From NCBI GenBank assembly GCA_964252035.1, contig OZ176207.1: 64,000 bases of DNA, one strand, 5' to 3'. Shown here piece by piece: positions 1 to 24,000 of this stretch. Made by a program: the position numbers. The stretch's first letter is position 1, and every line of letters starts with the position of its first letter. The DNA comes from Podarcis erhardii. Lineage: Eukaryota.

Positions 1-3000
1 TCCCTTCTTGTGGAAATCATGAGGATTGCTTCCAGATGAAACCTAATAGTACCAAATTTTAATACATGCAGACTGACCCCAACAAGACCTAAAACCCTTT
101 TAGAAAGCATGAAGATGTTGGTAAAAATTGAGGCAGGGCCACCTCTGAGACTTTGTGGGCATGGAGATATGTTGGAATAAGACAAACATTTATGGATTGT
201 CCTTTCATATGAATGTGTGGCTTCCTTTGATGCCTTTCTCCCTTCTGCCTCTTCTTCTGTTTCTTCAAAGTTGTTCCAAATATTATGGCCAAAGGTGATG
301 AGGTAAGAAAACAGCTTTCCCCCTGACTTAATATCAAGGCCTATTTTTCTAAGATACCATGAAATCTGTGAGGACTTCATACCTAAAAGCTATGAAAAAG
401 ATATGTCCAGGTTTTGTTTGTTTAACCAAAGAGTTTGTTTCTCTCCTAGCAACCAATTATTGTTTTGAATCATTAAGGTTACCAAAATAGTAATCCAGAG
501 GATGAGAGTCTGTGTGGCTTTGCCTCTACATGGACCATGCTCTTTGTGAAAGTACCAGTGATCAATGCTGTCTTCTCTTCTCTCTACTGGTAGAATCCAA
601 TGAGAGCCTTTCTAACCGAACACTACCAGAATAGAGAAGAGAGGGCCAGTCTCCTCTTCTGCTGGTAGTTTCCTCTCTTCTGTTTGCTGGCTAATCAGAA
701 GCTAGTAGCTATGTGTGTGAGACGGGGAGGGGGGGGCTGAGTATTTGTGTAGGAGAAAACAGGTGGGTGTGGTGTAAGAGGCTGGATCCACACTACAGCC
801 ACTAGATAGGCTGAGGAAATGCTTTCATTTGTGGCTTTAAGATGTGGCAGTGCCCTTTCTCATGGCCAAGACCCTGTTATAATGCTTGCTGCAAAGTAAG
901 TTTAATTCAGCAAATATATCTAGCAACATATAAAAGCCTACCCTGGCTTCCTGTTGTTTCCAGTTGAGGAATGAGAGATGAATAGCCTCTTAATTACCCC
1001 TTGAATGTTTTCTCAGATTGCCCCAATGTCAGTTTCTATTCCTGTTTTTGTTCCTCCACTTGACATGTTTAGAGCTTTATTGTAATATTTGCTAGAGAAA
1101 ATTCTGTGAGATCACTTCCTTTGTCTGCCTTGGCAGGAAGCTGTAATACTACATACTTCCTTCCTGTCTAGGCAGCTCGGACACCATTTTTGAAACTTAC
1201 CGTATATTTTTGTACTTTTGTAACTTAGTTAGTAGTTCTAAACCTGCCTTCATTTTGCTGTTGTAACTGCTGCTTCAAGTCCTAGACTGTGTAAGTAAAT
1301 ACTACTATTATTTCTTCACAAAACAATGTGTGTGTGATTGTTGTTTTTAAGAGGGAGAAATGGAGTAATACCAAGAAAAATCCAGTCTGCCTTAAAGCAT
1401 CGTGGATTATTGTTTCTAGAAGGTTAAATCCACCTTGTCTTAGCTTCCAAGTTAAGCTGCAAAGGATGGCGCCCTGCTCTCAGGCAACAGAAAAATGTAC
1501 CAAAATAAGCAATGGCTGGAAAGGAAGGATTGGGGGCATTCGTGGAGTGCACTGGAGTCTGGTGCTATGGCTTCACCACTCCAACACCTGCTATCATATG
1601 ATGTCAGGTGATGCACAGGTAAGCGTCATCCCCCCAAAAAATCTATCTTACAGGCCAGATGGGGAGACCTTGGAGGCCTAATTAGGTGCACATGCTGTAG
1701 GTTACCCACTGCTGACTTGAATTGTATCAAAACATGGCAAAAAGTGGCTTAGGAAGGGATGCAGGTGACACACAAGCAGAAGGGAACAGGTTGAGGAAGG
1801 CTGGTTTAAGTGTCACATCCTATGGAGAGTTAGGTATCAACATAAGAATGCCTAAGCCTAATTAATAGATCTCTCATAGGGTATAGAATCTCAAGGTAGT
1901 ACAGTATTGTCCAGATTCAGCTTCACTTTATTTTCTACTATCAGACTATTACAAACTCCCATCCCAGCACCTGTTCAGAATGTCCACTGTTTCATCTGGA
2001 ATAGAAAGGGCCCAGATAATCCCTTCCTTCCAAGAATTCCTGGAATTGGGCAGCTATCAGCTGCTTGAGCATTTGCCCAAGAAGGGGTGGGTGGGCCTAG
2101 GGTTCAACAGAAACTTAGAAAAATCACCTAAGTCCAAGGAGGACTTTTTGAAGAGGGGTCCCACAGCTGCCACCTTCGAAGATGCTTCGAAGAGAGAAGA
2201 TGCATTCTTCTCTCAAGGCACCGTTATCAAGTATAATGAATTCCGCTAATCATTCAAAATCATGTAGATGTTATTAAACATAATGGGCAAAAATTGAATC
2301 TATGGGGCCTGCGCCACACTTTCCACAGCATACTTTCATCTGTACTGCCCATAATGTTGTCATCCAAGTTAGCAGGGTCTAAGTGGTATTATCTGTGAAA
2401 TGTTTCCCAAATGAGTTATAGTAGGCCACCAATGGCTCTGGAAATCCATCTTGGGGATGCAAATGGAAACGGTCTCTAGTCACTGGATGACACTGCATGG
2501 ACACAATGATAGCAGATAAATAATTTTTCTTCATTGCTATCACTGCCAGAAAGAGGCCCCAATGTTCACCCTGAGCTTTTCTGCACCTTAGCTGTTGTCT
2601 GTCTTGTTTCATCACCTAAATTCCCCAATAAACAAGGGAGCCAATGGGCTTAAACCAGTAGGCCTGGAGGGAACATGCCAACTGCCTATCTCTGTACACC
2701 AGAAACCAACCAGGGCTTTGCCATGTCAGACGAAACTCCCTGGGGGCTGCCAGGAAACACCAGAGGCCTTTTCACAAGTAAGTAATCTCTATCACATTTG
2801 GCTCTCCGCTTGCACACTGAGTGTTCAGACTAGAAGCATTGCTGTTCTCCAATGTCAGAGCAGATTGCATGCTGCTTTTTCTGTGGGAACCAAGTTTCTT
2901 CCAGTCTTTTAATTGGACTCCATTATCCATGTCTTGTGGCATGGGCTCATGGTACAGAGTGATCTGGATAGTACGTAGTTTTGGACCATAATGTACAGTC

Positions 3001-21000: not shown

Positions 21001-24000
21001 ATCTAACCTAATATTGTATACTCTTGACTTATGGTGACTCTCCAACGTATCTGATCCTTTAAATGCAAATACTGGATATTTTACCTGGAACTGTTGTCTC
21101 CTAAATGCAAAACATGCACTGTACTATTGAGGCATGGTCCTTCCCAGCTGTGGTTTTCAACTGGCCAAGAAACCTCTATTTTTTCTTTGAATAGTACTCA
21201 TATTGATGGGGGGGGGGGAATAACCAGTCACTTTTGCCTTACTCTAAGTTCATTTCATTGTGGTCGTTGTTAATTTGGCATATTTTAATTTCAATGGAGC
21301 ACACAAAATATATTTCTCAGGAGAAGGAAGGAGGGTGCAGACAGCCACATTTTAATGCACAAGCAACTTCTCATTTGCTTACCTGTGCTGGAAGCCTTGT
21401 CCTTGCATCCCCAGCTGCAGAAGTGAGCTTGAAGTTCTTGGCAGATGCTTGTGTTTGAAATCCTGGGCAGAGAATCTGAAAGGGGAATCTGAAAAGATAA
21501 ACATCACCTATCTGCCCTTTATTATTTGTGTTTATCTTGGCTGTTGAGTTGCCTTTTTATGCAGAGCTCCCCATCATCAAAGTCCCCTCTTGAGTATTCT
21601 TGAATTGGTGGCCAAGTGATGTCTTAATGTCTGAGAGCAAAGTTCCCTGGCTAGGTTTTTTATATTCCTGGTCATGCATTTCTAACAGTTGCAAAGAATC
21701 CTGTCTTCAAATGCAGCTGGAGAAGGGTTTGGAGGGAGGGGGATCTTCATTAACTTTCTTTCCAAAGGTAACATCACACCATAGTTGTGGGCAGGACCAA
21801 CCTTCTGAGTGAGCATAACATCCTGTCGAGCTTTCTTTCCTCCACTGTGCTAGAAGGCTTATATTAGATGTAGAAATATACTGCTCCACCAGCAGAGTGC
21901 TGTGCTCAACCAGCACACAGAGATGTGACAACGATAGCAGGTATGAGATGGGTTCACACTGTTTCAAGGATTATACAGTGGTGCCTCGCAAGACGAAATT
22001 AATCCGTTCCGCGATTCTCTTCGTCTAGCGGTTTTTTTGTCTTGCGAAGCAAGCCCATCGACGGCTTAGTGGATTAGCGCTCTTATCGGCTTTTAGCAGC
22101 TTATCGGCTTAGCGGATAAGCAGATAAGCAGCTTAGCGGCTTAGAAAAAGGGGGGGGGGAGGAAAAAAAACCCGCAGGAACTCGCAAGACATTTTCGTCT
22201 TGCGAAGCAAGCCCGTAGGAAATTCGTTTTGCGAAGCACCTCCAAAACGGAAAATTCTTTCGTCTAGCGAGTTTTCCATCTTGCGAGGCATTCGTCTTGC
22301 GGGGCACCACTGTAAATTAATTCAGGTACTATACCAATTACATTATTTGCTTCTGAATTGCTGCCTCTGTTGCAGTTGCAGTTCAACAACCTAATCATAA
22401 CAGCTAACATTTTTCACAGCTGTTATTTGTTAGCGATTTTTGCACAATGTTTCCCCCAGGGTAGCTGTCCAAACACATAAAAACAAAAACTACATGAACC
22501 CTCCCTCATCTATAACACACCAACTTCCCACCACCATCTACCACGGCAGCAATGAAACACAAAGCAGAGCATGAGTCTTTTGTGATTACTAATGTATTCC
22601 ATCTTTCAACAAGAAAGGCATGATCTTAATATTATTTAACAATATGTTAAAAAATCAGCCAATAGGCTTCAGCGTTAATACAGTTATACAGTTTTACTGA
22701 TTTGATATGCAAGTACTCATTTGCTAAACTTCCTCTTGCAAGTATTTTTACACAAGCTGGCTACAAATTGGGAATCAAAACACAAATTGCTTAACTTGTA
22801 CATTCTCAACAGTAGATTGTGAAAAACAAAAGTAAATGCTTGTCCCAAAAGAGGAATTTTCTCTATGACAATTTCTTTAAAGAAGTCTATAAGGAAAGAG
22901 CAAAACTAGTTGGATTCATTGCTCTGTTTAAAGGACAAGTCATAGCAAAATGGGAAAAGCCAAGGTATCTCCAGAAACTGGAAACATGCTGTTGTTCCAA
23001 TTCCAGCAACTGCAGACTATAGTCAGATAAGTCTCATTCACAGACTTCAATCACAGAAACTAACATATGTAGTTAGAAAGCAGCAATTCTGCAGCCTTCT
23101 AGCATAATCAGGGGAAAGGCTAGATGACCAGTGAAGATCCACACAGCACTGCTAATGAAGGTATTTGTCTCAAGGCCACAGCAGTTCTCAGCACAGGGAG
23201 TGCAGTTAGTAATTAGATCCCACAACATTCATATCCATGTTATGTCCTTTAGTGGACAGCAAAGGTAGCTTTCTTCAAGCTAAAGTTGGACCAATTGATG
23301 GAAAGTCTTTGCCTTGTCTGTCTGGCAGAATCCAAGCAGAATCTGTAAAGGAAATATGTGTAAAGGAAATCTAATACACACCAAGGAAGTATATATCATC
23401 ATGTCTATATTACAATTTCCTTTGATAATTATTCGATTTCTAATTATATAAAATGTACCTTGTTAATACTTGAGCAGAGTTGCTTAAACTTCAGCTAAAA
23501 GAGAGTGCATTAACACCCACCCTAGGGTGGAAGAAGGCTGAAAGATTTGACATGATAACTAATGTTGTATTTTTTATATATATATATATATATATATATA
23601 TATATATATATATATATATGACTTCTTTTAAAGTCAAAATTGCTATTCACAGTGGGGTAAGGTTTAGATACCTTTGTCTGCATTTTGCAATGAGCAAATG
23701 TGGCAAGTCAGTAAGCAGAGCCAATGCTTCTGGCCCCTCAGCTCTGGCTCATTTCAAATAACAGCTGCTATTAAAATGTGTTGCTGACTGAGACCTAGAG
23801 GCTACGAACCAATGTTTAATCTCATTTGATTGTGCTGAAACAGGGATGGGGACTTTGTGGCCCTCCAAATGTTGCTGCACTTCAGCTCCAATCAGCCGCT
23901 GCTAGCAAAGCAAGTGGGAGTTGGAACTCCAGCCACATGTGGAGAGCCACGGGCTCCCAACGCCTGGGCTAAGAGGCCCCAAGGGTGGCACTAATGTGAA

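What the first reader, a model, noticed from the sequence alone, without database searches (positions are those of the whole stretch)
2772..23342. Head-to-head SMIM33-like / ECSCR-like pair located next to FAM193A
Seen: SMIM33-like (minus) and ECSCR-like (plus) are divergently arranged, and ECSCR-like converges on the 3' end of FAM193A. Recalled: in human, ECSCR and SMIM33 are also head-to-head but lie at 5q31 between DNAJC18 and STING1, while FAM193A is at 4p16 next to TNIP2; these regions belong to one ancient paralogon. Inference: this is either a second, ohnologous ECSCR/SMIM33 pair retained in reptiles and lost in mammals (an undescribed endothelial membrane-protein module), or a lineage-specific translocation of the pair.
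Basis: partly seen in the sequence, partly recalled or inferred. Interest (0 to 1): 0.65.

Follow-up and report, generated by a model that had tools for sequence, protein, structure and literature searches.

The report
Lizard ECSCR–SMIM33 pair beside FAM193A
A lizard's ordinary, single-copy ECSCR and SMIM33 genes sit head to head as in mammals but lie next to FAM193A, most likely because of a chromosome rearrangement early in lizard evolution rather than a forgotten second gene pair.

Summary
The SMIM33 ORF lies at 2772-3158 (-). ECSCR has seven GT-AG coding exons at 11938-20878 (+). The last FAM193A coding exon lies at 23249-23344 (-). The two start codons are 8.8 kb apart and the two stop codons 2.4 kb apart. 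Exon identities place the window in a lacertid lizard close to Podarcis.

Named squamate proteomes show one SMIM33 and one ECSCR gene per species. In 5 of 5 squamate species with data, a pair gene and FAM193A lie on a contig of identical length. In 5 of 5 birds and turtles the contig lengths differ.

The SMIM33 tree splits into squamates, turtles and birds, and its stem branches are of ordinary length. Its identity decay parallels that of a FAM193A exon, and Pfam scores are alike across the three groups.

The best reading is that the known orthologous pair was moved next to FAM193A in the squamate lineage. The second-ohnolog reading is not supported, but it is not strictly excluded, because no outgroup and no whole-genome search were available. 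The finding is ordinary and of low interest.

The parts
2772..3158 (-). SMIM33 coding exon (128 codons plus stop at 2772-2774)
   Evidence: ORF. Pfam PF17665 at 30.5 bits against a cut-off of 28.5. 88% identical to Zootoca vivipara SMIM33. A candidate splice acceptor lies about 30 nt upstream of the ATG, so the 5' UTR exon or exons probably lie further upstream.
3159..11937 (.). 8.8 kb between the two divergent start codons; holds the unknown promoters and 5' UTR exons plus interspersed repeats
   Evidence: No Pfam family reaches its cut-off in the ORFs tested here. Dispersed and tandem repeats. There is no CpG island; the highest CpG observed/expected ratio is 0.78, at 10801-11400.
11938..11995 (+). 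ECSCR coding exon 1 (start codon, signal-peptide-like hydrophobic N-terminus)
   Evidence: tblastn with named lizard ECSCR proteins. GT donor; peptide identical to Lacerta agilis and Podarcis raffonei.
13754..13801 (+). ECSCR coding exon 2 (ectodomain)
   Evidence: AG/GT ends; identical to L. agilis and P. raffonei.
14827..14952 (+). ECSCR coding exon 3 (Ser/Thr-rich ectodomain; partly or wholly skipped in some lacertid isoforms)
   Evidence: 97.7% identical to Podarcis muralis P0070. AG/GT ends.
16829..16927 (+). ECSCR coding exon 4 (transmembrane helix and juxtamembrane Cys/His/Arg stretch)
   Evidence: Pfam PF15820 at 41.8 bits against a cut-off of 27. 100% identical to four lacertid proteins.
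18231..18267 (+). ECSCR coding exon 5 (cytoplasmic)
   Evidence: Identical to P. muralis and P. raffonei.
20082..20164 (+). ECSCR coding exon 6 (conserved cytoplasmic tail)
   Evidence: Weak Pfam PF15820 match on its own, 16.5 bits, E 0.008.
20847..20878 (+). ECSCR coding exon 7 with TGA stop at 20876-20878
20879..23248 (.). 2.37 kb between the convergent stop codons; must hold both 3' UTRs
   Evidence: On the plus strand there is no AATAAA or ATTAAA until 23770. On the minus strand AATAAA lies at 21518 and 20903. Overlapping UTRs are therefore possible but not shown.
23249..23344 (-). FAM193A last coding exon (31 codons plus TAA stop)
   Evidence: 100% identical to Lacerta agilis FAM193A residues 1066-1096. 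Pfam FAM193_C at 51 bits against a cut-off of 27. Stop codon.
27025..59933 (-). Remaining FAM193A coding exons held in the window (14 tblastn blocks)
   Evidence: tblastn with L. agilis P0081 and Chelonia mydas P0105. The 260-aa exon at 28263-29042 is 93% identical to L. agilis.

Best explanation
The window comes from a lacertid lizard close to Podarcis. It holds the single orthologues of two known genes. ECSCR encodes a type I single-pass membrane protein with a signal peptide, a short Ser/Thr-rich ectodomain, a transmembrane helix and a conserved cytoplasmic tail. By orthology with the mammalian protein it probably modulates endothelial cell migration and PTEN/Akt signalling. SMIM33 encodes a single-pass membrane protein of unknown function. 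The two genes are transcribed divergently from an 8.8 kb interval, as in mammals, and probably share regulatory sequence; that last point is inferred. Their position tail to tail against FAM193A is a derived state of the squamate lineage. A rearrangement joined the pair, which in mammals lies with DNAJC18 and STING1, to the chromosome block that carries FAM193A. The pair stayed intact as a unit. Three points are not resolved: whether the pair moved or FAM193A moved, whether only the two genes or a larger block was involved, and what lies beyond SMIM33.
For: Gene identity was tested exon by exon.

Copy number. In one search (66 hits among 73 candidates) each of the 7 named squamate species has one SMIM33 row. 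In one search (13 hits among 21 candidates) the 12 named rows are isoforms of one ECSCR gene in each of 9 squamate species. Where a species has several rows with a contig, the contig is the same, and the sequences differ by skipped exons.

Shared chromosome.
- Lacerta agilis, 86,565,987
- Rhineura floridana, 323,582,766
- Elgaria multicarinata, 117,240,367
- Hemicordylus capensis, 322,367,141
- Sceloporus undulatus, 251,488,870

They differ in 5 of 5 birds and turtles: Mycteria americana, Phalacrocorax carbo, Chlamydotis macqueenii, Emydura macquarii and Terrapene carolina.

Orthology.
- In the SMIM33 tree of the window plus 27 named hits, squamates (100/100), turtles (99/94) and birds (100/97) are each one side of a branch. 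The squamate-to-archelosaur branch is 0.4, against stems of 0.16 for turtles and 0.19 for birds.
- Window SMIM33 identity falls from 66% (Anolis) to 53-54% (turtles) and 50-57% (birds). The undisputed orthologue FAM193A falls in the same way, from 58-60% to 45-48% and 46-48%.
- Pfam DUF5527 scores overlap: squamates 22.0-33.6 bits (6 proteins), turtles 32.7-35.7 (2), birds 20.7-34.6 (3).

Context from the literature.
- Mammalian context appears in passages of PMC6334744 and PMC12071055.
- Cytogenetic maps keep the chicken chromosome 13 and chromosome 4q linkage groups on different squamate chromosomes (passages of PMC3534110 and PMC4524605). This argues for a small-scale move rather than a whole-chromosome fusion.
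Against: A shared chromosome is not adjacency. Only this window shows the 2.4 kb spacing.

Contig lengths are given per 90% cluster, so in clusters with several members the contig may belong to a species other than the one named. The Terrapene and Emydura values may come from scaffolds rather than chromosomes, which leaves three birds as the firm contrast.

The SMIM33 tree has no mammalian, amphibian or fish outgroup, so the root is not tested. ECSCR from birds, turtles and mammals was never retrieved under a name.

An unannotated second copy in the genome cannot be excluded, because no whole-genome search was possible. No geckos, snakes or tuatara appear among the SMIM33 and ECSCR hits.

The landing site lies in a region that is, by recall, paralogous to the pair's mammalian home. 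For a random move that is an unlikely coincidence, roughly a few percent by my own rough estimate.
Confidence: 0.75

Rival explanations
1. Hidden paralogy. After the two vertebrate genome duplications there were two ECSCR/SMIM33 pairs. Squamates kept the copy beside FAM193A and lost the 5q31-type copy, while mammals, birds and turtles did the reverse.
For: The pair lies beside FAM193A. By recall, its paralogue FAM193B shares a human chromosome arm with ECSCR/SMIM33, so the location falls inside the matching paralogous region. The SMIM33 tree is unrooted and so does not formally exclude a deep split between squamates and the rest.
Against: It needs three independent losses, against one rearrangement. 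No species among the named rows shows two genes. The squamate-to-archelosaur branch (0.4) is little longer than the turtle and bird stems together (0.35). SMIM33 identity decays in step with a true orthologue. Bird and turtle proteins score no better than squamate ones against Pfam DUF5527. The squamate query found birds and turtles at 50-57% identity but no named mammal. That is the reverse of the equal distances expected under paralogy, although fast evolution in mammals could also explain it.
Confidence: 0.05
2. Ancestral adjacency. The single pair lay beside FAM193A in early amniotes or tetrapods. Squamates keep that state, and the pair moved away independently in mammals and in the turtle-bird lineage.
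For: No outgroup (amphibian, lungfish, shark) could be checked for ECSCR or SMIM33 location. Only their FAM193A contig lengths are known.
Against: It needs two independent moves to what appears to be the same kind of neighbourhood. Mammals have the pair with DNAJC18 and STING1. Birds have it on contigs of 17-25 Mb in most named rows, a size that by recall fits the chromosome orthologous to human 5q31-35.
Confidence: 0.1
3. Assembly misjoin. The adjacency is an artefact of this assembly.
For: None found.
Against: The sequence is continuous with no N. The spacer is only 2.37 kb. Five independently assembled squamate genomes place the genes on one contig.
Confidence: 0.02

Closest known systems
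ECSCR (ECSM2/ARIA), endothelial cell-specific chemotaxis regulator of mammals
   Same: Same Pfam family PF15820. Same layout of signal peptide, ectodomain, single transmembrane helix and short cytoplasmic tail as described for the mouse and human proteins (passages of PMC3344256). Many small exons and isoforms made by exon skipping. The closest named relatives carry this name in NCBI annotation.
   Different: Shorter: 160 codons in 7 coding exons here, against 10 exons in mouse. The neighbour on the 3' side is FAM193A rather than DNAJC18. Endothelial expression and function were not tested in any reptile.
SMIM33 / Pfam DUF5527
   Same: Pfam PF17665 above its cut-off. One coding exon; a single predicted transmembrane stretch. 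Divergent partner of ECSCR, next to it as in sheep and cattle gene lists. The Atlas places the Zootoca homologue in the SMIM33 cluster.
   Different: Low score against the family model, as for all sauropsids tested (20.7-35.7 bits). No function is known for any member: the 11 papers that hold the name mention it only in gene lists, judged from the listing and the passages.
Mammalian DNAJC18-ECSCR-SMIM33-STING1 locus
   Same: The head-to-head pair is kept as a unit.
   Different: In squamates the pair shares a chromosome with FAM193A and in this window abuts it. Whether STING1 still lies beyond SMIM33 is unknown, because the window ends 2.8 kb past SMIM33.

Membership tests
ECSCR (PF15820) | Match to the family profile above the curated cut-off | tested here: met
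   The transmembrane exon alone scores 41.8 bits against a cut-off of 27. Exon 6 alone scores 16.5 bits, below the cut-off. The named stand-in Podarcis muralis P0070 scores 99 bits. The joined window model was not built or searched.
ECSCR (PF15820) | Signal peptide, ectodomain, one transmembrane helix, short cytoplasmic tail | tested here: met
   The exon-by-exon peptides and the alignment of seven lizard proteins show a hydrophobic N-terminus, one hydrophobic helix and an invariant tail. No dedicated signal-peptide predictor was run.
ECSCR (PF15820) | Endothelial expression and effect on cell migration | not testable with these tools
   No expression data for this genome are on hand.
SMIM33 (PF17665, DUF5527) | Match to the family profile above the curated cut-off | tested here: met
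   30.5 bits against a cut-off of 28.5, E 3.3e-7. The margin is narrow, and 3 of 5 other squamate orthologues fall below the cut-off.
SMIM33 (PF17665, DUF5527) | Divergent neighbour of ECSCR | tested here: met
   Window coordinates. In Phrynocephalus forsythii the locus tags are 011273 and 011276 on one contig.
FAM193A | FAM193 C-terminal domain and collinear match to named FAM193A proteins | tested here: met
   PF15914 at 51 bits against a cut-off of 27 on the last exon. 15 collinear tblastn blocks at 73-100% identity to Lacerta agilis FAM193A.
Second (ohnologous) ECSCR/SMIM33 pair | Two pairs in one genome, or in some lineage | tested here: not met
   One gene per named species. This covers annotated proteins only; no whole-genome tBLASTn was possible.
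Second (ohnologous) ECSCR/SMIM33 pair | Squamate sequences fall outside a clade of mammals, turtles and birds | tested here: inconclusive
   There was no outgroup. Branch lengths, identity decay and Pfam scores speak against a deep split.
Second (ohnologous) ECSCR/SMIM33 pair | Location in the paralogous chromosome region | not tested
   The paralogy between the human 4p16 and 5q31-35 regions is recalled, not computed here.

The most novel reading that the evidence does not exclude
The squamate pair is a hidden ohnologue. On this reading it is a second ECSCR/SMIM33 pair from the vertebrate genome duplications, kept beside FAM193A only in squamates, which then lost the copy that mammals, birds and turtles retain. 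The genes now named ECSCR and SMIM33 in lizards would then not be orthologues of the mammalian genes.
Probability: 0.05. Interest if true: 0.55.

Novelty: already known. Interest (0 to 1): 0.15.

Why it matters
The finding matters little beyond comparative mapping. Both genes are already named in the annotation of related lizards. The new neighbourhood is one more synteny breakpoint of the squamate lineage. Two modest points remain. First, the head-to-head pair survived a rearrangement intact, which fits shared regulation of the two genes. Second, ECSCR now converges on FAM193A with only 2.4 kb between the stop codons, so the transcripts may overlap. If the low-probability ohnologue reading were true, functional inference from mammalian ECSCR to lizards would need revisiting.

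Tried and rejected
I mapped the exons by local tblastn with named lizard proteins instead.
- The 32-aa transmembrane exon was below the 40-aa minimum of the homologue search. I sent a 53-aa in-frame stretch of the same ORF instead. It found only squamates, so named ECSCR from birds, turtles and mammals was never obtained.
The look-up that would have named them and given their contigs was switched off. I left their sequences unused because their origin is unknown. An ECSCR tree and ECSCR chromosome fingerprints outside squamates could therefore not be made.
- The Atlas did not hold the window SMIM33 or P0070. With the Zootoca homologue it returned only the SMIM33 cluster and unrelated small membrane proteins.
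- Rfam found nothing in the window.
- Pfam found no family above its cut-off in 12 other large ORFs of the region.
- Paper searches found nothing on the arrangement: 'ECSCR' with 'FAM193A' gave 0 papers, 'ECSCR' with 'synteny' gave 0 papers, and 'SMIM33' gave 11 papers, which mention it only in gene lists as far as the listing and two papers' passages show.
- I did not test binding between ECSCR and SMIM33, because the report does not claim it.
- I never joined the spliced ECSCR and FAM193A models. Only single exons and named database proteins were searched.
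Full report
**What is in the sequence**

The window is 64 kb with no N, about 40% G+C and strong CpG depletion, as in a vertebrate genome.

SMIM33:
- On the minus strand one ORF runs from an ATG at 3158 to a stop at 2772-2774 and encodes 128 aa.
- It matches Pfam PF17665 (DUF5527) at 30.5 bits against a cut-off of 28.5.
- Its best named hits are 'small integral membrane protein 33' of Zootoca vivipara (88% identity), Podarcis muralis (82%), Rhineura floridana (77%) and Elgaria multicarinata (72%).
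- A polypyrimidine tract with AG lies about 30 nt upstream of the ATG. The coding exon is therefore probably preceded by an untranslated exon further upstream.

ECSCR:
- I mapped it on the plus strand by local tblastn with named lizard ECSCR proteins and refined the exon ends by eye and by script.
- There are seven coding exons: 11938-11995, 13754-13801, 14827-14952, 16829-16927, 18231-18267, 20082-20164 and 20847-20878.
- Every intron has GT-AG ends. The reading phases fit across junctions. The exon lengths sum to 483 nt, which is 160 codons plus TGA, the length of the Podarcis muralis protein P0070.
- The transmembrane exon alone matches Pfam PF15820 (ECSCR) at 41.8 bits against a cut-off of 27. 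Exon 6 alone gives a weak match of 16.5 bits.
- I searched single exons and used named database proteins as stand-ins for the whole protein.
- Six of the seven exon peptides are identical to Podarcis raffonei ECSCR isoform X3, which skips most of the remaining exon. The window is therefore from Podarcis or a very close lacertid.

FAM193A:
- It lies on the minus strand. Fifteen collinear tblastn blocks run from 59912 down to 23252, at 73-100% identity to Lacerta agilis FAM193A.
- The last coding exon is 23252-23344, followed by TAA at 23249-23251. It matches Pfam FAM193_C at 51 bits against a cut-off of 27.

SMIM33 and ECSCR are divergent with 8.8 kb between their start codons. ECSCR and FAM193A are convergent with 2.37 kb between their stop codons. 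None of 12 other large ORFs tested in the region reached a Pfam cut-off. The interval between the pair is full of dispersed and tandem repeats. No Rfam family matches anywhere in the window.

**One pair or two**

- In one search (66 hits among 73 candidates) each of the seven named squamate species has a single SMIM33 row. The named birds and turtles show isoforms of one gene.
- In one search (13 hits among 21 candidates) the 12 named rows are all squamate ECSCR, from nine species. Where a species has several rows, they lie on one contig where a contig is given, and they differ by skipped exons.
- So annotated squamate proteomes show one pair.
- This does not exclude an unannotated copy.

**Where the pair lies in other species**

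The protein search gives the length of the contig that holds each protein. I used that length as a fingerprint of the chromosome.

In 5 of 5 squamate species for which both a pair gene and FAM193A have a value, the lengths are identical to the base:

| Species | Genes with a value | Contig length |
|---|---|---|
| Lacerta agilis | ECSCR, FAM193A | 86,565,987 |
| Rhineura floridana | all three | 323,582,766 |
| Elgaria multicarinata | all three | 117,240,367 |
| Hemicordylus capensis | SMIM33, FAM193A | 322,367,141 |
| Sceloporus undulatus | ECSCR, FAM193A | 251,488,870 |

These species represent Lacertidae, Amphisbaenia, Anguidae, Cordylidae and Phrynosomatidae.

In 5 of 5 non-squamate sauropsids with both values the lengths differ:

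| Species | SMIM33 contig | FAM193A contig |
|---|---|---|
| Mycteria americana | 51,305,444 | 92,937,732 |
| Phalacrocorax carbo | 46,689,938 | 84,621,172 |
| Chlamydotis macqueenii | 20,896,716 | 84,623,986 |
| Emydura macquarii | 53,158,656 | 3,850,156 |
| Terrapene carolina | 18,087,745 | 97,862,717 |

Caveats:
- The value is given per cluster, so in clusters with several members it may belong to another species than the one named.
- The two turtle values may come from scaffolds rather than chromosomes.
- A shared chromosome is not adjacency.
- No gecko, snake or tuatara appears among the SMIM33 or ECSCR hits.

In mammals the pair lies with SPATA24, DNAJC18 and TMEM173/STING1. This is shown for sheep chromosome 5 (passages of PMC6334744) and cattle chromosome 7 (passages of PMC12071055).

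On the amniote tree, separation in mammals and in turtles plus birds, against co-location in squamates, is most simply one change on the squamate stem.

Cytogenetic gene maps keep the linkage groups of chicken chromosome 13 and chicken 4q on different chromosomes in snake, anole and gecko (passages of PMC3534110, and of PMC4524605). By recall, these groups are the homes of the 5q31-type genes and the 4p16-type genes respectively. If so, the junction seen here is a small-scale move and not a whole-chromosome fusion. This step is inference.

**Orthologue or hidden paralogue**

- A maximum-likelihood tree used the window SMIM33 and 27 named hits. These were all 7 squamate rows, all 6 turtle rows and 14 bird rows picked by hand from the 66 hits. 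The 15 unnamed rows were left out.
- In that tree squamates (100/100), turtles (99/94) and birds (100/97) are each one side of a branch. The window groups with Podarcis and Zootoca (100/96).
- The branch between squamates and the rest is 0.4 changes per site. The turtle and bird stems are 0.16 and 0.19. A split dating from the vertebrate genome duplications should, by my rough clock estimate from recalled divergence times, be about three times longer.
- As an internal control, window SMIM33 identity falls from 66% (Anolis) to 53-54% (turtles) and 50-57% (birds). A FAM193A exon, whose orthology is not in doubt, falls from 58-60% to 45-48% and 46-48%. There is no extra drop at the squamate boundary.
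- Against the Pfam DUF5527 model, squamates score 22.0-33.6 bits (six proteins, window included), turtles 32.7-35.7 (two) and birds 20.7-34.6 (three). If only birds and turtles carried the orthologue of the mammalian gene, they should score clearly better. This argument assumes that the model rests mainly on mammals, which I could not check.
- The tree has no outgroup, so the root is not tested. ECSCR could not be treated in the same way. The 71 representatives found with a lizard profile carry no names, and the look-up that would have named them was switched off. I left their sequences unused.

**What speaks for the ohnologue idea**

The landing site is striking. By recall, FAM193A's paralogue FAM193B and TNIP2's paralogue TNIP1 lie on the same human chromosome arm as ECSCR/SMIM33. 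The pair therefore sits in the region paralogous to its mammalian home. A random move would land there only a few percent of the time by my rough estimate. I weigh this against three points: the ohnologue reading needs three losses, no species shows two copies, and the sequence evidence above points to orthology. I put the reading at about 5%.

**How it most likely works**

- Shown: the gene structures, the family matches, the orientations, and the shared chromosome across squamates.
- Inferred from orthology: ECSCR is a type I membrane protein of endothelial cells with a signal peptide, an ectodomain, one transmembrane helix and a short cytoplasmic tail. This is the layout described for mouse and human ECSCR (passages of PMC3344256).
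- Literature links: ECSCR is linked in the literature to filamin A binding, chemotaxis and PTEN/Akt signalling. I saw these only as a reference title and as the title and start of the abstract of PMC4686900 in the listing.
- SMIM33: it has no known function. The 11 papers that hold the name mention it in gene lists only, judged from the listing and the passages.
- Inferred from the conserved divergent arrangement: the two genes share regulatory sequence and so travelled as a unit.
- Possible but not shown: the plus strand has no AATAAA or ATTAAA between the ECSCR stop and 23770, which is beyond the last FAM193A exon. The minus strand has AATAAA at 21518 and 20903. The two 3' UTRs may therefore overlap.

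**Verdict**

These are known genes, already named in related lizards, in a neighbourhood that is derived for squamates. No paper in the searched library holds both ECSCR and FAM193A, or ECSCR and synteny, so the breakpoint seems undescribed in print. It is an ordinary kind of event. Interest is low.

Noticed in passing
window 59763-59933 (-): All 22 squamate FAM193A models are 967-1128 aa. Most turtle, bird, crocodilian, mammal and amphibian models are 1310-1600 aa. The Lacerta protein starts where the turtle protein is at about residue 423. The window holds no match to the first 420 turtle residues (E up to 5). Squamate FAM193A may lack the N-terminal third, use another first exon, or have it upstream of the window.
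   Followed up: partly
window 20879-23770: No canonical poly(A) hexamer follows the ECSCR stop on the plus strand until 23770, which is past the last FAM193A coding exon. The minus strand has AATAAA at 21518 and 20903. The convergent transcripts may overlap. A stretch at 21901-22500 has a CpG observed/expected ratio of 1.0 at 45% G+C.
   Followed up: partly
window 7281-7667: A tandem array of 2.9 copies of a 129-nt unit (94% matches). Related single copies lie at 10507-10589 and 11337-11439. This is a dispersed repeat family in the interval between the pair.
   Followed up: no
window 5801-5978 and 8109-8210: An 80-nt hairpin-like inverted repeat (98% complementary, 14 nt apart), with a further copy 2.2 kb away (99%). 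It looks like a small foldback or MITE-like element present twice.
   Followed up: no
window 8876-9206 and 12561-12939: Two copies of a repeat that ends in a (TTA)n/(ATT)n microsatellite of 14-17 units. One lies between the pair and one in ECSCR intron 1.
   Followed up: no
row P0031: A 140-aa bird SMIM33 cluster carries the NCBI name 'Protocadherin-12 [Aix galericulata]'. This is most likely a misnaming. PCDH12 is, by recall, a 5q31 gene, so the name may reflect a fused or neighbouring model in some bird annotation.
   Followed up: no
No snake appears among the named hits for SMIM33, ECSCR or even the FAM193A exon, although many lizards do. This may be a limit of the word-based search rather than gene loss.
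   Followed up: no
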